Assembly (NCBI GenBank): GCA_050952645.1
Contig: JBMNLI010000017.1
Span: forward strand, 192,001-256,000
Length of the DNA stretch: 64,000 nucleotides
Direction: 5' to 3'
Source of the DNA: Bdellovibrionota bacterium
GTDB taxonomy: Bacteria; Bdellovibrionota_C; UBA2361; CAKMMH01
Shown: positions 1,260 through 44,066 of the stretch, in pieces
Layout: each line of letters opens with the position of its first letter
Numbering within the stretch: position 1 is the stretch's first letter
The notes under the pieces: generated by a model
The model's input: the letters and a program-made list of their open reading frames with translations, nothing else
Database searches by the model: none
What the model was told of the DNA's origin: nothing
Made by a program: the position numbers and the translations under genes

Positions 1260-1910
1260 TTGAAATTTAAAACTAATAAAAATGGCATTATAAAAAGAAA
1301 CGAGCCTAAAGTTATCGGTATTTTTATAGATGGCGTTGAGTTAGATAGAGCTACTAGAAGAGTTAATAAAAAAATCAATGTGAAAGAACTTCTAAAAACT
1401 CTATCTCTTGGAATTGTACCTACGGTGGTAAGATATTATACACTTATTCCATATGAAGACGATTCTAGACACCGTGCTTATTTAGATGCCGTAGAAGATG
1501 CAGGATTTCAAGTAGTAGTAAAGAGGTTGCCTCCTAAGGGTGTAAATCGCCAAGTGTTAGTCGACACTGAAATGGCTTCAGATATTGTAGCATTTGCGTT
1601 TGGTTATAATAACTTTTCTTTGATAAACGATTTAGATGCTAAAGGTGAGCTTATAAGAAATCTTACTTTAGATAATAAATTAGATAACAAATTAAATAAT
1701 AAAAATGCTTCTCTAACAGACTCATCAGTTAAAAAAGTAATAAATCTTGTATGTCCTAGTAAAGAGCTAACTTACGCCATTTCGCTTGCTAACACTCAAA
1801 ACACTGAAACTATAACGGCAGATTTTGGAAAAATAAAAGCCAATCAAGATATTTTAAAATCAGCTTCTAAGTGGATCGATTTGTCAGATTCTGAAACTAT
1901 TTGGAGATAA
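1260..1910 (+). CDS. NYN/LabA-like (PIN-fold) domain protein
   Basis: IFIDG..., VRYY, VDTEMASD motifs typical of NYN domains; directly upstream of dnaB. Confidence 0.65.
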   Translation: MKFKTNKNGIIKRNEPKVIGIFIDGVELDRATRRVNKKINVKELLKTLSLGIVPTVVRYYTLIPYEDDSRHRAYLDAVEDAGFQVVVKRLPPKGVNRQVLVDTEMASDIVAFAFGYNNFSLINDLDAKGELIRNLTLDNKLDNKLNNKNASLTDSSVKKVINLVCPSKELTYAISLANTQNTETITADFGKIKANQDILKSASKWIDLSDSETIWR

Positions 1911-1919
1911 TTAAAAGTA

Positions 1920-3383
1920 ATGAATGTAGCTAGACAAGACGAATTTACCAACTCTAAAAAAAGTAAGTTTACGGAGTCTAGTAAACAACAAGTTAGCTCT
2001 AATCTAGTTAGAGTTCCGCCCCATTCCTATGAAGCAGAAGAGTCGGTGCTAGGTGGCATCTTAGTCGACAATTTTACTATTAACGCTGCGATGGAAATTT
2101 TAAAACCATCAGATTTTTATAAAAGAGCGCACTTCAAAATTTTTGAAGCTATGATTTCTCTTACTGAGAGAAGCGAACCGATTGATGCTATTACATTAAG
2201 CGAAGAGCTTAAAAGGTATAATGTGCTAGAGGAATGTGGCGGATTAGAAATGATCTCTAGGTTAGCTTCATCAGTTCCTAGCGCTGCAAACGTTGCTTAT
2301 TATTCAGATGTAGTAAAAAACTTTTCTATTAGAAGAGCTGCTATTCATGAAGCTAGTGAGGTTATAAATAATGCGTTTGATACTGAAAAAAATTTAGATG
2401 AATTTATAGATGAAACTGAACAAAGAATTTTATCTATTGCAGATGAAAAAACTGATAAGGCTTTTACGCATATTGGTGATATAGCGCAAGACGCTTTACA
2501 ACTAGTAGAAAGGTTGTATGATAAGAAAAAATCCGTTACTGGCGTTCCGTCTGGATTTAACAAACTTGATGATTTAACGGCAGGCTTTCAAAAATCTAGT
2601 TTATTTATTTTAGCTGCTCGTCCTGGCGTTGGTAAGACTGCTTTTGCTTTAACTATCGCACAAAATGTAGCATTAAGAGAAGAATTAGCGGTGGGAATTT
2701 TTTCTTTAGAGATGTCGAAAGAAGAGCTTTTTATGAGAATGTTAAGTTCAGAGGCGAGAGTTTCAAATTCAAAATTAAAAACTGGTAAATTTCCCGAATC
2801 GGATTTTCCAAAAATAGTCAATGCCGCAAGCAGATTAACCGACGCCCCTATTTATATAGATGATACGGGGGGTTTAACTATTACGGAGCTAAAAGCTAAA
2901 GCGAGAAGATTAGCTAGAGAAAAAAAACTAGGATTGATCATAGTAGATTATTTACAACTTATGAGAAGCCCGACTTACAAATATAGTAGAGAGCAAGAGA
3001 TAGCGGATATTTCACGTTCATTAAAGGGGCTTGCTAAGGAGCTTGATATACCAGTTATAGCGATTTCACAATTAAATCGTAGCGTAGAGGGAAGAGATGA
3101 AAAGCGCCCAAGGATTGCAGACTTAAGAGAGTCGGGAGCTATTGAACAAGATGCCGACATTATAGCGTTTGTATATAGAGATGAGATGTATAACCCCGAC
3201 ACTCCAGATAAGGGCATTGCAGAAATTATTTTAGGCAAACATCGCTCAGGTCCAACTGGCACTGCAAGGGTTGCTTTTTCGGGAGAGTATACTAGGTTTG
3301 ACCCTCTAGATGAGTCTGGAATAACGGAACAATTCGAGGCTCAAGATTACGAGCAAGATGATTTTGATATAGATTCTTTTTAA
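1920..3383 (+). CDS. dnaB: Replicative DNA helicase
   Basis: PPHSYEAEESVLG, AARPGVGKT, IIVDYLQLM, DLRESGAIEQDAD. Confidence 0.98.
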   Translation: MNVARQDEFTNSKKSKFTESSKQQVSSNLVRVPPHSYEAEESVLGGILVDNFTINAAMEILKPSDFYKRAHFKIFEAMISLTERSEPIDAITLSEELKRYNVLEECGGLEMISRLASSVPSAANVAYYSDVVKNFSIRRAAIHEASEVINNAFDTEKNLDEFIDETEQRILSIADEKTDKAFTHIGDIAQDALQLVERLYDKKKSVTGVPSGFNKLDDLTAGFQKSSLFILAARPGVGKTAFALTIAQNVALREELAVGIFSLEMSKEELFMRMLSSEARVSNSKLKTGKFPESDFPKIVNAASRLTDAPIYIDDTGGLTITELKAKARRLAREKKLGLIIVDYLQLMRSPTYKYSREQEIADISRSLKGLAKELDIPVIAISQLNRSVEGRDEKRPRIADLRESGAIEQDADIIAFVYRDEMYNPDTPDKGIAEIILGKHRSGPTGTARVAFSGEYTRFDPLDESGITEQFEAQDYEQDDFDIDSF

Positions 3384-3392
3384 TTAAAATCT

Positions 3393-3589
3393 GATTCTTT
3401 ATGTTTTAAGTTAGTTTAAAAGAAAATTGACTTTAGTAAAGAACTAGCTATAGTTTAAAGAAAAATTACAACTATATTTAAAGTAATTTATTTTATGTAA
3501 ATTTCTTTAAAGTCAACTTTCTTTTTGGGCCCCGTGGAGAGCGATACTAATTCTTAAGGTCTAAAACCCACCTTAAAACGTGAAGAACT
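3393..3589. mobile_element. MITE-like repeat, subfamily A
   Basis: Right end CCCACCTTAAAACGTGAAGAACT, degenerate left end, internal inverted repeat AAAAGAAAATTGACTTT/AAAGTCAACTTTCTTTT; matches the copies at 38686, 41760 and 53047. Confidence 0.8.
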
Positions 3590-3675
3590 AAATTTTTTCT
3601 TAAATTATTCCCCCTTCCAAACTCTAACATATTGAAATAACGAAACTATTTTTAAGAAAAATTTTGAGAAAAGGT

Positions 3676-3703
3676 TTGACTAATTATTTTAAAATGATAT
3701 ACT
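3676..3703 (+). promoter_or_regulatory. Sigma70 promoter of structured RNA unit 1
   Basis: TTGACT(3676-3681)-16 bp-TATACT(3698-3703), with TG at 3695-3696 (extended -10). Confidence 0.8.
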
Positions 3704-3710
3704 TTTTCTT

Positions 3711-4395
3711 TGTGGTTGAAAGCTTCATGTCAGCTAGCCATAGGGGGTGGGGGGAGAGCGAAGATAGGCAAAGTATTTACTTGAAGAGTGAACGTTGATG
3801 CCTAAGCGTAATCGCTAGCTAAAGTAAGCTCTTAGCTTGCTTTGGCTTATTTTCTGCTCTCTCCCCTAGTTTTAAAATAAATATAACAGCAACAGTAAAA
3901 CGTAGCTTAGGCTTAAAGCTTTAAGTTATTTATGTCATGGGTAGCTAGTAGCAGGTAGCTTGTGGTTTTTGCTCATCGGAGCCACAGACAGCTACTTTCT
4001 CTCGCGGCTACGGCTATTAAGTGTGTTTTACTGTTCTTTCACTCGCTTGACACAAAAGTGTCCAAGGGCGGAGGCGTTTGATGACGACTCCAAACGCCAA
4101 CCTTTGTGAGGGCGAGTGAAGAGGGAGGGGGAATGCATTCTGCGCAAAAGAAACACTACCATGGCATTTCTTCGCGTACCCCCTCCCTCGGCTTACTTTT
4201 ATAAGGTTTTTCCTTAAGGGTTTTTATCTTAAAGAAGGTTTTCTCTTAAGGGTTAAGTCTTAAGGTTTAAAATCGCATATAATGCGAAAATTGAAGATTT
4301 CGGAGCAATGATTTTGAAACAGCTAAGTTTAAAATAACGAAGTTTAAAATAGCGAAGTTCAAAGATGACGCTTCGAAATTCTTCTCCCATATTTT
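3711..4395 (+). ncRNA. Putative large structured ncRNA, unit 1 (unknown family)
   Basis: Stems 3711-3718/3735-3742, 3749-3759/3856-3866, 3891-3901/4025-4035, 4038-4048/4110-4120, 4121-4131/4179-4189; 3' hairpin about 4293-4384 then T-rich tail; no ORF. Confidence 0.65.
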
Positions 4396-4711
4396 TATAT
4401 TTTTACTTTTTCTACTTTTTTCATCTTTATACGTATTAGTACACATCCATATATCTTAATATATCTTTTATAATTTAACCTTTATAATTTACGCCTTACT
4501 CTTAGTAATTATCCTTTTTTAAAAAATATACTTCTAAAAATTCTAACATTAGCTTTAATCCTTAAAAATTATCTAAATCTTAAACTTTTCCTTGTTTTAC
4601 GTATAAAATTTAATTTTAACTTTATAACCTACTAAAAATAATTTAAGAAAAGCTTAAGACATAAAAGATAAAAAAATTTACAAATAATTTAAAAAAATTT
4701 TTCATAAACTA

Positions 4712-4739
4712 TTGACTTGATATCAAAAAGTGTTATATT
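4712..4739 (+). promoter_or_regulatory. Sigma70 promoter of structured RNA unit 2
   Basis: TTGACT(4712-4717)-16 bp-TATATT(4734-4739), TG at 4731-4732. Confidence 0.8.
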
Positions 4740-4745
4740 ACTTTT

Positions 4746-5511
4746 TCATTTAGTGACAACATCAGCAATATTTAATTGCTATAAGTATATAACGAAATAC
4801 GTAGCGACAAGTTGCTTTACAGAGTTCCTACTTGTTAGCTACGAGTTCCCATCACGAAAGAGGGCTAGGTCGTGCTAGTGCCACAATTGCGCGATCTTCT
4901 CCTTTGCTCTTTTTTAGAGCACTCTCTCTAGTGTGGGAAGCAAAGGTTTCGCCGAAGTGAAAGCTTGTTTCAGGCTCTTAAGTAGCGCCTGACTCTAAGA
5001 GTCTTACAAGTTTCACTTATCTTAGCATTTGCAAAGATTAGGGGGCTAGAGTTGGATAAAAAGCGAGAAATCGCACCTTCCTCCGCAGGCTCTAGCCCCC
5101 TACGGCGAAATCTTTAAATTAGATATAATAAAGGCTTAAACCCTTATAAGTCCCCCCTTAAAAGTTCGAAGAGATTCTATAGTAATCCGCCTAGGGGAGT
5201 CTATTCACTTTAAGGGTGGCAAACATAAAATCCTTGCTCTATGTTTTTGCTCTATATATCATTGCTTAGGTAAGCATTTTTTTTAGACGCACTTTTAGGA
5301 GCAAGGCAAAGGGGGGCGCAAGGAGGTTTCATCCTTTTTCCTCTGCGCGGCGCCCCCCCTCTTGGTTTATTTTTATAGCGTTTATTTTTATAGCGTTTTT
5401 TAAAAGGTTCTTCTCGTCTTAATGTTTAAAAACAATTAAGCGATGAGCAACTAAAAAAAGAGGACAACTTGTAAAGGGTTTCGGTAATTTACGAAGCCCT
5501 TTTCCTATTTT
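4746..5511 (+). ncRNA. Putative large structured ncRNA, unit 2 (unknown family)
   Basis: Hairpins 4800-4843 and 4846-4939; four-way junction closed by 4942-4954/5103-5115; stems 5232-5239/5299-5306 and 5311-5319/5350-5358; terminator-like hairpin about 5473-5511. Confidence 0.7.
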
Positions 5512-5682
5512 TAATTAAATTTTTAATTAAACTCGTTTCTTTAATCTTTTTTATTTTTCACATTTTAACCTAAACATTTTAACCTAAACTTTTCTCTTTT
5601 TACATATAAAATTTTTATTTTAATCGACAAACTCACTTAAAAAAATTAAAAAAATTACCTTGCACCCTTACTTACAAAAACA

Positions 5683-5710
5683 TTGACTACATACTCAAAA
5701 ATGTTATATT
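5683..5710 (+). promoter_or_regulatory. Sigma70 promoter of structured RNA unit 3
   Basis: TTGACT(5683-5688)-16 bp-TATATT(5705-5710), TG at 5702-5703. Confidence 0.8.
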
Positions 5711-5716
5711 CAATAT

Positions 5717-6046
5717 TATCGTTTATAGATGCCTTCCTTGCCAACTTGCAATTTAGGTATCTAGAAAAGTGCTTACATTTCACTCCCAATATGCAAACAA
5801 AAGTGAAAGAACATTACAATTAACCTTTTGGATCATTTCTAAAGCTCGTAATGACAAGTTTTTTTAATTAACCCTAAAAAAACTGCATGCACTTTTCAAT
5901 TACCCTTTAATTTTAACTAATTACTAAAGAGAGAAATTAGAAAAAGAAAAGGAAGGCTTTCCCATCTCTAAAAAGTTTTAACCTTGCACTCTTTCTTTTT
6001 TCTCTCTTAGGAGGTAAAAATAACAAAAGGCTTTTTGCTTTTTTTA
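5717..6046 (+). ncRNA. Putative structured ncRNA, unit 3 (AU-rich, unknown family)
   Basis: Stem 5726-5734/5755-5763; 5764-5772/5889-5897 enclosing three hairpins; 5927-5936/5999-6008; T-tract about 6038-6045. Confidence 0.55.
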
Positions 6047-6102
6047 TAAATAATATTTTAAAAAGTTTTTTGCAAAAAAAATAAAAATATTTTGCAAAAA
6101 AC

Positions 6103-6132
6103 TTGACTTGCTTTAAAAAAAGAGGTTAATAT
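6103..6132 (+). promoter_or_regulatory. Sigma70 promoter of structured RNA unit 4
   Basis: TTGACT(6103-6108); -10 less clear (TAATAT 6127-6132, 18-bp spacer); structure starts at 6139. Confidence 0.6.
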
Positions 6133-6138
6133 TGACCT

Positions 6139-7170
6139 TTGTTAGTTACTGAGACGTAGCTCACCCTACAATTTCTCATAGCTAACAATTTGCTCAATAC
6201 TTTAGCTAAGGAATTCCTTAAAGCTAGTGTCGAGCATGCTTTCGCCTTATAACAGAGAAATTTAGATATGCTTCTCGTTGAAACGTGTCTTCCTACAAAA
6301 TGCTACGTGCAGTAGGCATAGCAAATCTCTATAACATTTCCCTAGAGTTTGCTGTGGTTTCTTTGTTATGTTCAGGGAAGCGAGGAAGGTCGTCGAAAGT
6401 AGTTTAGCATTGGCTACTTTCTTAACCTTTACTTGCTTACCCTGAGGGCGAAAGTTAATTCTTGTTATTTTTAGTTTTGCAAACAACATTTTTTTTTAGC
6501 GTTCGCAATTAAAAATTGCAGTTAAAAAATCGCAGGTTAAAAAGTGTTATAAGGTATATTTATATTGGTGGTTTTAGCAAAGCACTATTTTAGAAAATAG
6601 CGATTATAAGGAAATAAAGAGATGCACTCTCCTTGGCTCCTACGCCCCTTTAGTTGATAAGGCTAACAAGCTGCAAGCCTTTCATTGGGGTAAAGCCTTT
6701 CACAAAATCAAAGGGGCGTAGGTGCTCTATTTGAGTTTACTCTTTTTCTTTTCTCGTTATTTACTATTATTATTGACGCCTGGCATCGATACATAAATAA
6801 TTATCTTGTCTATTATTTTAAGCGTCTTGCGTATTATTATTCGCATTTGCTAAAATACCACCTCTCGAGGCGGAGTGGAGGAACTTTTCTTTTCTAGCAT
6901 CTCTTATTTTCTACCCCTTGATGCTTAGAACCTCTTTGTGCGGGCAACGTGAATGTTTCGCACGGGCATTGCGCGTTGTGTTTCCCCACCACTCCACTCC
7001 GCCTCACTCTTTAACGCTTCTGTAAAAAAGGAAGCTATAAAGGTTCTTTAGAATGTTTTTATAGATGGTTTTTAAAAAATTATATATAATTTTTTCTATA
7101 AAAAGATTTTAAAGGTGGCAATAAAAAAGATTTAAAGGCTCGCCTTTAAAATCTTTTTCCCATTTTAATT
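6139..7170 (+). ncRNA. Putative large structured ncRNA, unit 4 (possibly two RNAs: 6139-6455 and 6567-7005)
   Basis: Hairpins 6139-6188 and 6191-6236; junction closed by 6238-6247/6446-6455; stems 6567-6581/6846-6862, 6639-6651/6710-6722 (13 bp perfect), 6867-6880/6992-7005 (14 bp perfect); terminator-like hairpin about 7123-7166. Confidence 0.7.
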
Positions 7171-7451
7171 CCTTACTTAATTATTATTTACTTAATTTTT
7201 TCTAATTTAATTTTCTCTAATTAAATTTTTTATTACATCTGTTAATTTTATTTTTTCAATTTCCCCCCTTTCTTTGCTTTCTTTTGCCTTGCTTTTATTT
7301 GCTTTTCCTTTTTTTTCCCTTAACTTTTTATATTTACTTTTTGATCCGTTTAAAACATTTCATTTTTTTATATTTCTTATGGTTGTTTTCTTTTACTTCA
7401 TTTTTTATAATAAAGTTTCAAACTTAAATTCTAAAATTTTAAAGGCTATTT

Positions 7452-8636
7452 ATGATAAGAGAAATTACTGAAAATATATATTCACTACGTGCTATAGATT
7501 GGAATGTAAGAGAATTCCATGGATACGAAACTAAAAGCGGTTCTACCTACAACTCATACTTTATAAAAGATAAGAAAAATGTGCTAATAGACTCTGTAAA
7601 ACATACATTTAAAGATACATTGTTAAATAATATATCTAGCGCGTTAGAAACTAGCAAGCTAGATTATATCGTTTGCAACCACGCAGAGCCAGACCACTCA
7701 AGTGCAATTAAGGATGTTATAAAAAAATATCCAAACGCTACTCTTATATGCAACCAAAGATGTAAAGATATTCTCTCTTTGTATTACAACACTACTGATT
7801 GGAAATTCCTAATTGTAAAAGATGGCGATACCATAAACTTAGGAGAAAATGAACTATATTTTTACGATACCCCAATGGTTCACTGGCCAGAATCTATGAT
7901 TACATACGTCCCTAATAAAAAACTCCTATTTTCCATGGATATTCTAGGACAACATTACGCCTCATCATTTATATTTGATTATGAAGAAAAAAAAGAAACT
8001 CTACTTTCTGAAGCAACGAAATATTATGCAAATATAGTTTTGCCCTACCCTAAACAAGTTTTAAATGCATTAGGAAAAATAAAAAAATTAGATGTCGAAA
8101 TAATCGCTAATAGCCACGGACTTATAATTAAAAAATATTTGCCTGAGATGCTCTCCTTATACGAAAATTTTGCTAATGGTATAAATAAAGAAAAAGCATT
8201 AGTAATTTACGATACAATGTGGGGAAGCACTGAAAATATAGCCTTTAGTTTAATAAGCGGCCTAAAAACTAATAAAGATTTAGAGATTAAAGTTTGCGAC
8301 CTAAAAACTACTCATAATACTATCGTTGCTAGCGAGGCAATAGATGCAAAATATATCTTAGTAGGCTCCCCTACCCTTAACTCAAATATCCTGCCTACGG
8401 TTGCTAGCACTCTTACTTACCTAGAGGGACTAAAACCATTAAATAAAACTTGCCTCTGCTTTGGCTCATATGGCTGGGCACCTGCATTTGCTAAGAAGAT
8501 AACCGAATATTTTGAAGCATTAAACTGGAATATATTTTCAGACCCTATAAGCGTTAAATACAAACCTACTAACGCTTTTTTAAATGATTGCTTTAATATT
8601 GGAAAAACTCTTAGCACTTATAATCAGCATCAATAA
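7452..8636 (+). CDS. fprA: Flavodiiron protein (FprA-type; metallo-beta-lactamase plus flavodoxin domains)
   Basis: GSTYNSY, NHAEPDHS, PMVHWPESM, YDTMWGST, FGSYGW. Confidence 0.92.
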   Translation: MIREITENIYSLRAIDWNVREFHGYETKSGSTYNSYFIKDKKNVLIDSVKHTFKDTLLNNISSALETSKLDYIVCNHAEPDHSSAIKDVIKKYPNATLICNQRCKDILSLYYNTTDWKFLIVKDGDTINLGENELYFYDTPMVHWPESMITYVPNKKLLFSMDILGQHYASSFIFDYEEKKETLLSEATKYYANIVLPYPKQVLNALGKIKKLDVEIIANSHGLIIKKYLPEMLSLYENFANGINKEKALVIYDTMWGSTENIAFSLISGLKTNKDLEIKVCDLKTTHNTIVASEAIDAKYILVGSPTLNSNILPTVASTLTYLEGLKPLNKTCLCFGSYGWAPAFAKKITEYFEALNWNIFSDPISVKYKPTNAFLNDCFNIGKTLSTYNQHQ

Positions 8637-18500: not shown

Positions 18501-18604
18501 TATCTTTTAAAAATCTTCTCTGTCCCTCTTTTTATTTCTTATTTTTTATCCTAAACTTTTTTTATTCTAAACCCTACTCTCATTTTGCTTATGTTATATT
18601 TTTT

Positions 18605-18880
18605 GGTTCTTCACGTTTTAGGTGGGTTAGAGTCTATCTTCTAATTTAAATTGACAAAATTATTTTACAAAACTGTTGTTGTTTTATTAAAATAATAGTT
18701 AATTTTATTGGTAAAATAAATATTAGAGTTGTTAGGAAAAGTTATCCATAACTGATAGCTTGGCCCCAGCAATAAAAAGCTAAAGGTCAAGCTGTCAGGC
18801 TGTGGATAACTTTCACAAAGACTCCATTAAACAGAATGGCGTTTTGTTTCTCTAGGGGGCCATTTAAAACGTGAAGAGCT
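18605..18880. mobile_element. MITE-like repeat, subfamily B (DnaA-box hairpin)
   Basis: Ends GGTTCTTCACGTTTTA/TAAAACGTGAAGAGCT; near-identical to 47085-47350. Confidence 0.85.
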
Positions 18881-18951
18881 AAAAGTTTGGGTTTTATCTT
18901 AGGAATATCAACAAAGCTCTGTAATAGAACTAAAATTTTTAGCTAAAAAGA

Positions 18952-42169: not shown

Positions 42170-44066
42170 ATAGGGTAGAGCGAGGGCTATACCCTCTCCC
42201 TCCCGTCGCACCGTACGTACGGGTCTCGTATACGGCGCTCCATTAATATAATATCAAGTAATACTCAGGTAATACGTCAAAGGGTCGATTAAACCAATTC
42301 GTTCCTTTGTTTTACGCCCCAATATTTTAGGGCTTAATGCATAATTCACTACGTACCACGAACTGCGTCTATACCAGCCGAGTCTGCTGTTAGCAACCTT
42401 ATAGATTTCTTCATTTCTAAAATTGCAACCAAGCATTCGGTTCAATTTCTTAAGATTTAGATAGATTCGTCTCGGCAATTTCCACTGTTTAAGTATTATA
42501 ACCCTCACTTTGTGTCTAAGCCATTGACCATATTTATCTATAAAAGTCTTAAGAGTTCCTATCTTATAATAGTTTATCCAACCTTTAATTAACCAGCTTA
42601 GCTGTTGAAATGTCGAACCTAACGTTCGTGCCATTGCCTTCCGTCTACAAAGAATTTCTCTAGTTTTATCATAGAGTTTTCGTTTGCGATCTTCAGCAGG
42701 TTTACATTTCCAAGTTTTATACCCACTCTTCCAGTAGGTAAAGCCTAAGAAAGTGCTTTCCGTCGGCCTAGAGATTTTACTCTTACTTGAATTAATTTTA
42801 AGTCGTAGCTTACGCTCCAACCAACTCGCAACGGACTTCATTACTCTATTAGCAGCCTTTTCACTTCTAACAAATATATTACAGTCATCGGCATATCTAA
42901 CAAACTTAAGTCCTCTTGCTTCCAGTTCCTTGTCGAGTCTTATCAAGGTATATGTTAGATAATACTGGGGATAATGGACCTCCTTGCGGAACTCCTTTCT
43001 CACTTACAGTAAACAATCCATCTTCCATTATACCAGCTCTTAAGAACTGTCTTATCAATCGTAGTGTCTTCGCATCTTTGATGCGTTCCCTGATTATCGA
43101 AATTAATTTGTCGTGATTAACAGTATCAAAATATTTCTCTATGTCTAGGTCTATAACCCAATCATAGCCTCTTTTCAAGTACTCAAGAGTTCTATATACT
43201 GCTAGATGGCAATTCCTTCTAGGTCTAAAGCCATAGCTACTATTACTAAAATACTTTTCGTATCCGCGTGCTAGTATTTGCGCTACCGCTTGTTGAATTA
43301 CCCTATCTACTACTGTAGGTATTCCTAAAGGTCTCATCTTACCATTAGCTTTAGGTATATACACTCTCTTAACTGGACTCGGCTTATAATTCCCTTCACG
43401 TATCTGAGATTTTATCTCTTCTCTGTGAACGGCAAAATAGTCTTCAAGCTCATCTACTGGCATATCATCTACACCAGATGCACCTTTATTTCGCTTAAAC
43501 AGCCTTTATAGCCTCATCTATATTTTTGTCTGATATAATTAGTTCAATCAATTCCACCTGTTGCTCCTCCCTCTGTTTGTAAAGCTACTAGAAAACACCC
43601 CCTCTATCTTCTGCCCCCACAGGTTACGTTCCTGTTTGTTAGGCATATCCTTCAATTTCGGACTCTTCTAGCCTTGCTTACAGTGATTCACAATATATTA
43701 ACGTTCAACCCTTCCTTGAGTGGTGTCTCAAGTACTATGGTATCAACTGACTTCCAGATATAAGCTTTATATCGCACGTGCATAGCACGCTATCTGGACC
43801 TCCCGGGGTAAGGCATAGTTCTTTCACCAGACAACCTCCAGATTTACTCGTTTGGTTTTACGTTTGTCTTTAGGGCTTCGGTTTGTAGCGCAACCTCACC
43901 CACCATTTAGCCTTGTATCTGGTTTCTGTTCGTAGGCTCCTTGGTTTTGATCCGCCACTTCCTTCACTCTAACATTACTGCTTCGAGCTTGTGGCATCAC
44001 TACACTTGGTGACAACTACCCGTGACGGGACTTTCACCCGCTAGAACTATGTCGTGCCCGGCACAC
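42170..44066 (-). mobile_element. Group II intron, class C (IIC), 1897 nt
   Basis: 5' GTGTG; domain V GAGCGCCGTATACGAGACCCGTACGTACGGTG with CGC triad; 3' end CTACCCTAT; boundaries fixed by the intact neighbouring repeat (GGGC|TTCGTG). Confidence 0.95.
42254..43557 (-). CDS. ltrA: Intron-encoded reverse transcriptase/maturase, no endonuclease domain; two apparent +1 frameshifts (about 43498 and 42937)
   Basis: GGAGG RBS and GTG at 43557; NKGASGVD, RPLGIP, SYGFRP, PQGGPLSP, RYADD, FLGF, GWINYY. Confidence 0.92.

What the first reader, a model, noticed from the sequence alone, without database searches (positions are those of the whole stretch)
3676..7170. Tandem array of four independently promoted large structured non-coding RNA genes downstream of dnaB
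Seen: about 4 kb between dnaB and fprA has no credible ORF. It repeats one layout four times on the + strand: AT-rich spacer, TTGACT promoter, 300-900 nt mostly tiled by abutting helices (many 9-14 bp, with G-U pairs in the + sense) and multi-way junctions, then a terminator-like end. Units 1, 2 and 4 are GC-enriched against the genome. Each closes with a strong purine-first hairpin (GAGGGAGGGGG/CCCCCTCCCTC, GGGGGGCGC/GCGCCCCCC, GAGGCGGAGTGGAG/CTCCACTCCGCCTC). The units share architecture but almost no primary sequence. Known: large structured bacterial ncRNAs exist (OLE, GOLLD, ROOL, HEARO), but I see no hallmark of rRNA, tRNA, tmRNA, RNase P, SRP or introns here. Inference: a cluster of diverged paralogous or co-functioning stable RNAs of an undescribed class.
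Basis: partly seen in the sequence, partly recalled or inferred. Interest (0 to 1): 0.93.

Follow-up and report, generated by a model that had tools for sequence, protein, structure and literature searches.

The report
Tandem array of orphan folded RNAs
A 4-kb gene-free gap in an uncultured digester bacterium holds four back-to-back, promoter-led, very tightly folding stretches that match no known RNA family and barely resemble each other, so it likely encodes a fast-evolving set of large regulatory RNAs predicted to act by pairing with ribosome-binding sites, though transcription and function are untested.

Summary
Observation confirmed. Between dnaB and fprA lie four single-copy units (about 490, 630, 330 and 870 nt). 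Each follows a TTGACT promoter and folds far better than shuffles (z -8.3, -10.1, -4.8, -14.1; stronger on the + strand). None reaches an Rfam cut-off. A same-genus genome has one unalignable unit at this site; a same-family genome has none. A second locus shows the same pattern (two units here, one in the sister genome). Paralogy is unproven: only one weak covariance-model link (E 0.013, not reciprocal). No homologue was found elsewhere, so covariation could not be tested, and no RNA run was listed. Strain variants are less destabilising than random by energy (P 0.01-0.02) but not by a pair count (P 0.29). Loops are U/C-rich and nearly lack GNRA tetraloops (1 of 45 vs 12 of 62 in controls), unlike rRNA, RNase P or an ornate RNA. 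Best reading: genuine RNA genes (about 0.75) with selected stems and drifting loops, most likely Hfq-independent anti-Shine-Dalgarno regulators (0.33). Rivals: protein decoys, repeat by-products. The scan noted other orphan large RNAs in Bdellovibrionota and tandem RNA units elsewhere, but not this DNA.

The parts
3404..3600 (.). Dispersed MITE-like repeat R1 just after dnaB (context, not part of the RNA array); carries its own promoter-like site at 3427-3454
   Evidence: 37 copies of 150 nt or more in the genome
3676..3703 (+). Promoter-like site 1, TTGACT-16-TATACT with extended -10 TG
3710..4200 (+). Unit 1, predicted RNA of about 490 nt: 5' hairpin, four-way junction 3749-3866, two three-way domains, terminal 11-bp purine-first stem 4121-4131/4179-4189 that hides an SD-led 23-codon ORF (start 4133)
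   Evidence: z -8.3; structure; ORF
4581..4660 (+). Left end of dispersed repeat R2 upstream of promoter 2 (about 92% like other copies)
   Evidence: 24 copies of 55 nt or more
4712..4739 (+). Promoter-like site 2, TTGACT-16-TATATT with TG
4746..5372 (+). Unit 2, predicted RNA of about 630 nt: perfect four-way junction 4942-5115 (no unpaired linker), exposed UCUCCUU at 4898-4904 and CCUUCC in the internal loop near 5076, terminal stem 5311-5319/5350-5358
   Evidence: z -10.1; best match of the sister-genome model R1
5473..5512 (+). Terminator-like hairpin plus T-run after unit 2 (alternative 3' end)
5585..5654 (+). Eroded left end of repeat R2 upstream of promoter 3 (about 78%)
5683..5710 (+). 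Promoter-like site 3, TTGACT-16-TATATT with TG; 76% like promoter 2 over 34 nt
5717..6050 (+). Unit 3, predicted RNA of about 330 nt, AT-rich and weakest fold; canonical terminator 6025-6047
   Evidence: z -4.8
6103..6132 (+). Promoter-like site 4, TTGACT-18-TAATAT
6139..7012 (+). Unit 4, predicted RNA of about 870 nt: nested 3/4-way domain 6238-6455, domain 6567-6862, terminal 14-bp stem 6867-6880/6992-7005 with a C/U-rich loop; may run on to the hairpin at 7100-7158
   Evidence: z -14.1

Best explanation
The gap holds four promoter-led, single-copy, tightly folding units that are likely stand-alone RNA genes expanded at one site, and they are predicted to work as Hfq-independent antisense regulators whose helices would give stability while exposed C/U-rich strands would pair with ribosome-binding sites. 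Shown: promoter-like sites, folding, single-copy status, U/C-rich loops, a lone unit at the same site in a sister genome, Hfq not found and RNase III present. Inferred: transcription from each promoter; origin by tandem duplication plus rapid compensated turnover (about even odds against independent acquisition at an insertion hotspot); selection acting on stems and not on loop sequence; pairing with Shine-Dalgarno regions followed by blocked initiation or RNase III cleavage. That they are real RNA genes: about 0.75. That this is their mechanism: about 0.33.
For: Folding, promoters and junctions as in the observation check. Same-genus G001 has one promoter-led unit just upstream of fprA, z -8.0 to -9.4, single copy; same-family G002 has dnaB and fprA about 130 bp apart. 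Second locus: two units in this genome (C17, about 339.4-340.9 kb) where G001 has one between orthologous flanking genes; they share the promoter start and an SD plus tiny-ORF motif found only at those two places in all DNA held, so one-to-several expansion with fast divergence happens in this genus. A model of the G001 four-way junction scores best on unit 2's junction, 18.5 bits, E 0.013 in 95 kb; the next best was 11.7 bits, and 11.1 and 10.8 in two other sets of 100 and 56 kb. Of 29 listed strain variants in the units, 3 cost 2.5 kcal/mol or more (8.4 expected, P 0.011); mean cost 0.65 vs 1.43 (P 0.022). 12 of 71 unpaired segments pair with an SD probe at -5 kcal/mol or better, against 2 of 72 in five control RNAs (Fisher P 0.005). 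The G001 unit's largest loop reads CUAUCUCCUUUC, close to this genome's 16S tail CACCUCCUUUU. Hfq found in 0 of 9 genomes, RNase III in 9 of 9.
Against: The anti-SD excess is explained by loop composition: permuting the unpaired bases gives 10.3 +/- 2.6 against 12 observed (P 0.30), and unit 1 has 0 of 6. The spacers on this strand are themselves C>G and mostly T>A skewed, so pyrimidine loops may be mutational drift. No seed or k-mer is shared among units beyond chance. By a pair count 11 of 29 variants break a predicted pair (12.6 expected, P 0.29), no double compensatory change was seen, and by hand run X5 differs at about 1.3% of unit bases vs 0.9% of spacer bases. The 2.5 kcal threshold was chosen after seeing the pair count, one variant (-6.4) pulls the mean, and the variants come from contigs of depth 2-5. 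The reciprocal model does not recover the G001 junction. The units are longer than most base-pairing sRNAs (recalled). No target was tested.
Confidence: 0.33

Rival explanations
1. The RNAs are helical decoys that titrate a protein, most likely RNA polymerase, standing in for 6S RNA as Ms1 and the 516-nt, genus-restricted CoRP RNA do in Actinobacteria; RNase III or a junction-binding nucleoid protein are alternatives.
For: Rfam 6S found in 0 of 41 genomes of this group. CoRP shows that a 500-nt RNAP-binding RNA can be confined to one genus and missed by structure searches (PMC11077062, passages). Function by shape fits conserved stems with free loops. The G001 unit has a 190-nt rod with a one-sided bubble.
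Against: No unit is a 6S-like rod with a central two-sided bubble; no 6S match even at E up to 10. G002 has nothing at this site. Four different shapes are hard to fit to one binding site.
Confidence: 0.22
2. The units are by-products: nested palindromes built by repeats or template switching in a genus whose intergenic DNA is full of hairpin modules, lying behind promoters by accident or weakly kept.
For: Two MITE-like families have 37 and 24 copies here; R2 ends precede promoters 2 and 3; 18 of 29 strongly folding G001 gaps were largely made of repeated modules; no homologue outside the genus; pair-count test null.
Against: The units are single copy and match no repeat in 382 kb of intergenic DNA from four genomes better than shuffles; no inverted termini; GC-rich in AT-rich spacers; folding favours the promoter strand in all four; energy test suggests selection.
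Confidence: 0.2
3. They are translationally locked mRNAs or leaders for tiny peptides (type I toxin-like or leader-peptide RNAs).
For: Unit 1 hides an SD-led 23-codon ORF in its terminal stem and unit 4 has a weaker 11-codon one; the second-locus RNAs carry SD plus 2-7-codon ORFs with a motif kept between species.
Against: No shared or hydrophobic peptide among 40 ORFs of 20 aa or more; unit 3 and the G001 unit have no SD-led ORF on the sense strand and unit 2 only a weak GTG one; no convincing antisense promoters.
Confidence: 0.1
4. They are ornate, tertiary-folded RNAs of the GOLLD/ROOL/OLE type that form RNA-only cages, perhaps assembling with one another.
For: Size and many multi-way junctions. 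ROOL is also poor in conserved nucleotides (PMC5737381, passages).
Against: GNRA in 1 of 45 hairpins vs 12 of 62 in controls (P 0.007); unpaired purine 0.34-0.53 vs 0.57-0.75; loop-loop pairings 7 vs 6.5 expected, whereas those cages rest on kissing loops and A-minor contacts (PMC12286853, passages); no tRNA island or prophage context; no phage match.
Confidence: 0.08

Closest known systems
S. aureus RNAIII and C/U-rich-loop sRNAs of Gram-positive bacteria (RsaE/RoxS, LhrC1-5; features recalled), and sibling sRNAs such as streptococcal csRNAs (PMC4211561, passages)
   Same: Stand-alone promoter-to-terminator RNA with many hairpins and exposed C/U-rich strands; several copies, some in tandem; RNAIII is of similar size (recalled).
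   Different: Siblings share recognisable sequence and seeds; these units share none. Up to 870 nt, built of tight multi-way junctions. No targets known.
CoRP RNA, Ms1 and 6S RNA (PMC11077062, passages)
   Same: Large, structured, genus-restricted intergenic RNA in a lineage without detectable 6S.
   Different: No 6S-like rod; four different units in tandem; RNAP binding untested.
GOLLD, ROOL, OLE (Rfam; PMC12286853 and PMC5737381, passages)
   Same: Length 300-900 nt, many helices and junctions, no ORF.
   Different: No Rfam match, no GNRA or kissing-loop signature, no phage or tRNA-island context, no conservation beyond one species.
GEBRO RNA (RF02988)
   Same: A 20-nt purine-rich stretch of unit 1 resembles its consensus (16.8 bits, E 0.12).
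   Different: Gathering score is 284.7; GEBRO lies between plasmid replication origins; no plasmid match.

Membership tests
Any Rfam 15 family | Score at the family's gathering cut-off | tested here: not met
   0 hits in 3380-7460; best weak hits far below cut-off; G001 unit likewise
6S RNA | About 180-nt rod with a central two-sided bubble | tested here: not met
   Predicted folds are branched; no RF00013 match
6S/Ms1/CoRP functional class | Binds RNA polymerase | not testable with these tools
   Needs RIP-seq or pull-down
GOLLD/ROOL/OLE | Family covariance-model match | tested here: not met
GOLLD/ROOL/OLE | Kissing loops and A-rich tertiary motifs | tested here: not met
   GNRA 1 of 45 hairpins; no excess loop-loop pairing; based on predicted folds only
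GOLLD/ROOL/OLE | Significant covariation across homologues | not testable with these tools
   No alignable homologue found
Anti-SD base-pairing sRNAs (RNAIII/RsaE/LhrC type) | Exposed C/U-rich strands complementary to the SD sequence | tested here: inconclusive
   12 of 71 segments vs 2 of 72 in controls (P 0.005), but not above permuted loops (P 0.30); none in unit 1
Anti-SD base-pairing sRNAs (RNAIII/RsaE/LhrC type) | Conserved seed and validated mRNA targets | not testable with these tools
   No homologues; no RNA data
Sibling sRNAs | Copies share clear sequence homology | tested here: not met
CsrB/RsmZ sponges | Many GGA motifs in loops | tested here: not met
   1 of 20 GGA in U1-U4 is predicted open, although CsrA is present in 9 of 9 genomes
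Type I toxin-antitoxin loci | Short hydrophobic ORF in each unit with an overlapping antisense RNA | tested here: not met
MITE / REP-like repeats | Multiple copies with terminal inverted repeats | tested here: not met
   Units single copy; only spacer pieces are repeats
TnpB omega/reRNA or retron-type ncRNA | Cognate nuclease or reverse transcriptase gene beside it or in the genome | tested here: not met
   No adjacent gene; PF07282 not found in G000; RT matches only in G000 as one repeated sequence and its fragments, beside group II intron RNA where checked, and in 0 of 3 relatives incl. G001; IscB not searched

The most novel reading that the evidence does not exclude
This genus keeps expandable arrays of large RNA genes whose sequence turns over completely between sister species while near-perfect helices and tight four-way junctions are rebuilt: a class of shape-only bacterial RNAs, invisible to covariation-based discovery, with at least six members in this genome.
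Probability: 0.35. Interest if true: 0.85.

Novelty: new variant of a known kind. Interest (0 to 1): 0.62.

Why it matters
Large bacterial ncRNAs are found almost only through conservation. Here 2.3 kb of RNA-like sequence folds as well as RNase P RNA yet cannot be aligned to its counterpart in a sister species whose DnaB is 88% identical. If the units are expressed and functional, they show a fast-evolving, copy-number-variable RNA class that current screens miss, and they offer candidates for post-transcriptional control, or for the missing 6S function, in a lineage that lacks detectable Hfq and 6S. If they are by-products, they show how repeat-rich intergenic DNA yields promoter-led folded RNAs.

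Tried and rejected
Expression: no RNA holder listed among 14 runs; this says nothing either way. Homologue searches, all empty or at chance level: whole gap vs 40 relatives (only 7 candidates scored per genome); unit 1 vs 90 other genomes of the order (two 26-nt chance hits, one inspected and coding); units 2 and 4 vs 5 relatives; unit 3 was not searched alone in whole genomes, only in 724 fetched intergenic windows; G001 unit vs 3 genomes; phages and plasmids; three exact stem patterns in viral contigs; metagenome scan with FprA returned only relatives of 49% identity or less (80 loci kept); genome scan with the upstream protein returned only the three known relatives. Single-sequence covariance models: R1 vs 91 genomes, self only; R2 vs 1.22 Mb of G001-G003, none; R3 vs 124 genomes, self plus one partial hit at E 0.005, about what 124 searches give by chance, not inspected. 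These models have low power. Conserved site downstream of dnaB across the order: in 30 of 32 loci a reading frame of 90 codons or more starts within about 350 nt. 6S by gene context: PF01812 and RNase Y not found in G000, so no anchor. Gappy AT-rich alignments of unit 1 to C2 (score 59) and of unit 3 to C12 (score 91) exceeded three shuffles each but lie on low-complexity tails and partly in coding DNA; rejected. A 19-base likeness of unit 4 to a G003 palindrome module was not above shuffles. A purine-rich likeness of units 1 and 4 scored 7.8 bits, not significant. A promoter-led fold at C2:43.7 kb overlaps a 557-aa ORF and folds weakly on that strand (z -2.6); rejected as a member. The ftsK-lolA RNA of another genus is GNRA-rich and unrelated. 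The G-U/A-C strand test had no power. The alignment was mis-oriented and the three protein searches and the last four were out of frame; none is used. Literature: searches listed no paper on such RNAs in Bdellovibrionota (listings only; the library lacks most subscription papers). Supplements of PMC5737381 (motif drawings) were not opened.
Full report
Setting. The window is C17:192001-256000 of a 1.95-Mb, 31% GC, 94% complete genome. Its three closest relatives are labelled Bdellovibrionota or Bdellovibrionales. Runs holding half or more of the stretch's words are from an anaerobic digester and a bioreactor. dnaB is at 1920-3383 and a flavodiiron gene (fprA) at 7452-8636.

The gap has no ORF over 75 aa and no Rfam match at cut-off. 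tmRNA, RNase P RNA, SRP RNA, 16S rRNA and 38 tRNAs lie elsewhere. Four TTGACT promoter-like sites lie at 3676, 4712, 5683 and 6103; of 67 such sites genome-wide, those of units 4, 1 and 2 are followed by the three most stable folds. Whole-unit z-scores on the + strand are -8.3, -10.1, -4.8 and -14.1, each stronger than on the - strand; RNase P RNA of the same genome gives -8.5. Helices of 9-14 bp with pairing probability above 0.95 abut in tight junctions, including a perfect four-way junction at 4942-5115; 8 tight junctions were counted against a mean of 1 in shuffles. The units are single copy. Contig pieces from 8 of 8 runs laid match the region, so it is not an assembly artefact, although no piece spans it whole. 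The spacers hold pieces of two dispersed repeats: R1 at 3404-3600 and left ends of R2 before promoters 2 and 3.

Relatives. In same-genus G001 (DnaB 88% identical) dnaB and fprA are 2.5 kb apart; the gap holds a VTC-domain gene, a DUF4956 gene and, just before fprA, one promoter-led unit of about 400 nt that folds at z -8.0 to -9.4 and is single copy. It cannot be aligned to any of the four units. In same-family G002 the two genes are about 130 bp apart; G003 breaks at this site. In 30 of 32 dnaB loci of the order a reading frame follows within about 350 nt. The array is therefore genus-level and lies at a site that also takes up foreign genes. A second locus repeats the pattern: two promoter-led folded units at C17 about 339.4-340.9 kb (z -7.2 and -5.1) stand where G001 has one (z -4.3) between orthologous genes, sharing the promoter start and an SD plus tiny-ORF motif seen nowhere else in the DNA held. 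This is the best indirect argument for expansion followed by fast divergence.

Are the four paralogues? Not shown. Local alignments and shared k-mers are at chance. Sequence-structure profile alignments between units score no higher than against RNase P RNA or tmRNA. A covariance model of the G001 four-way junction picks unit 2's junction as best match in 95 kb (18.5 bits, E 0.013, next 11.7; other sets reached 11.1 and 10.8), but the reciprocal model does not return the junction, and any perfect four-way junction might score so. Models of units 2 and 4 find no other unit significantly. Promoters 2 and 3 are 76% alike over 34 nt. I put paralogy at about even odds.

Selection. With no homologues, only strain variants were available: 29 listed differences fall inside the units (variants in spacers and repeats were left out, the tool hid 4 rows, and depths are 2-5). 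Fourteen are unpaired, 4 keep a pair through G-U, 11 break one (12.6 expected, P 0.29). By energy they are milder than random changes of the same type: mean 0.65 vs 1.43 kcal/mol (P 0.022) and 3 vs 8.4 costing 2.5 or more (P 0.011; threshold chosen afterwards). A hand count for run X5 shows no fewer differences in units than in spacers. This is weak support for selection on the fold and none for selection on sequence.

What kind of RNA. Loops differ from those of tertiary-folded RNAs: 1 of 45 hairpins is GNRA against 12 of 62 in RNase P RNA, tmRNA, a group II intron piece, 16S and an ornate RNA of another genus (P 0.007), and unpaired bases are 34-53% purine against 57-75%. Loop-loop pairing is at chance, whereas GOLLD, ROOL and OLE assemblies rest on kissing loops and A-minor contacts (PMC12286853, passages). 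GGA motifs are buried (1 of 20 open), which excludes a CsrB-type sponge although CsrA is present in 9 of 9 genomes. TnpB was not found, and RT matches are confined to G000 and absent from G001. Twelve of 71 unpaired segments pair with a Shine-Dalgarno probe, against 2 of 72 in controls (P 0.005), and the G001 unit's 19-nt loop nearly copies the 16S tail. But permuting the loop bases gives the same count (P 0.30), unit 1 has none, and the spacers show a similar pyrimidine skew. Hfq was found in 0 of 9 genomes, RNase III in 9 of 9, and Rfam 6S in 0 of 41.

Mechanism. I commit to stand-alone RNA genes (about 0.75) whose stems are selected and whose loops drift, most likely acting as Hfq-independent antisense regulators in the manner of RNAIII or C/U-loop sRNAs (recalled; 0.33). 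Shown: promoter-like sites, folds, loop composition, gene content. Inferred: transcription, duplication, target pairing, RNase III action. Rivals: protein decoys such as a 6S substitute, for which the 516-nt genus-restricted CoRP RNA is the precedent (PMC11077062, passages; 0.22); by-products of the genus's repeat-rich intergenic DNA (0.20), countered by the lack of any match to 382 kb of such DNA; locked mRNAs for tiny peptides (0.10); ornate cages (0.08).

Comparison and novelty. It is a member of no catalogued family. Known sibling sRNAs occur in tandem but share sequence (PMC4211561, passages); known large RNAs were found by covariation (PMC5737381, passages). Seven literature searches (listings only) showed nothing on such RNAs in Bdellovibrionota. 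Earlier notes of this scan report other orphan large RNAs in the phylum and tandem promoter-RNA-terminator units in other phyla, but nothing like this DNA; I located one of them and it is unrelated. Verdict: a real, undescribed, genus-restricted array of candidate large RNAs; new variant of a known kind; interest 0.62, limited by the lack of expression and covariation data.

Noticed in passing
G000 C17 about 339380-340950, minus strand (L115:7380-8950); G001 counterpart L279:14190-14573, minus: Two tandem promoter-led structured RNAs with repeated AGGAGG and SD-led 2-4-codon ORFs; G001 has one at the syntenic site sharing an SD plus tiny-ORF motif. Candidates for ribosome or CsrA decoys.
   Followed up: partly
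L161:10657-11719 (G001): Single-copy folded unit (z -6.6) with a purine-first terminal hairpin and C/U-rich loop; no folded counterpart at the syntenic site in G000.
   Followed up: partly
G000 C7:130421-130922 and C17:374943-375373: RNase P RNA is 502 nt and tmRNA 431 nt, both enlarged by extra AT-rich helices; G002's RNase P RNA looks shorter.
   Followed up: no
41 genomes of the order; 9 genomes: No Rfam 6S match in any of 41 genomes and no Hfq in 9 of 9, while CsrA with a long open frame (104-156 aa) is in 9 of 9.
   Followed up: partly
window 3404-3600 and window about 42170-43984: MITE-like family R1 (37 long copies); copies of a group II intron, with at least seven identical RT matches in the genome, sit in or beside R1 copies at several sites, suggesting R1 is its homing target.
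   Followed up: no
window about 18550-18900 and C12:9200-9620: R1 termini enclose a different hairpin cargo containing DnaA-box-like TTATCCA words (motif recalled).
   Followed up: no
G001 loci L158, L164, L171, L174, L262, L271; G002 loci L198, L200, L209; G003 L023: Intergenic regions are mosaics of repeated GC-rich palindromic modules, different in each genus.
   Followed up: partly
G000 C16:46703-47439: CRISPR array with a palindromic GC-rich repeat.
   Followed up: no
L114:8783-12493, minus (G000 C2): 1236-aa cysteine-rich protein made of about five long near-identical repeats.
   Followed up: no
window 1260-1910: Conserved 216-aa gene directly upstream of dnaB with no Pfam match (NYN-like by eye, recalled), 61-72% identical in the family.
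   Followed up: no
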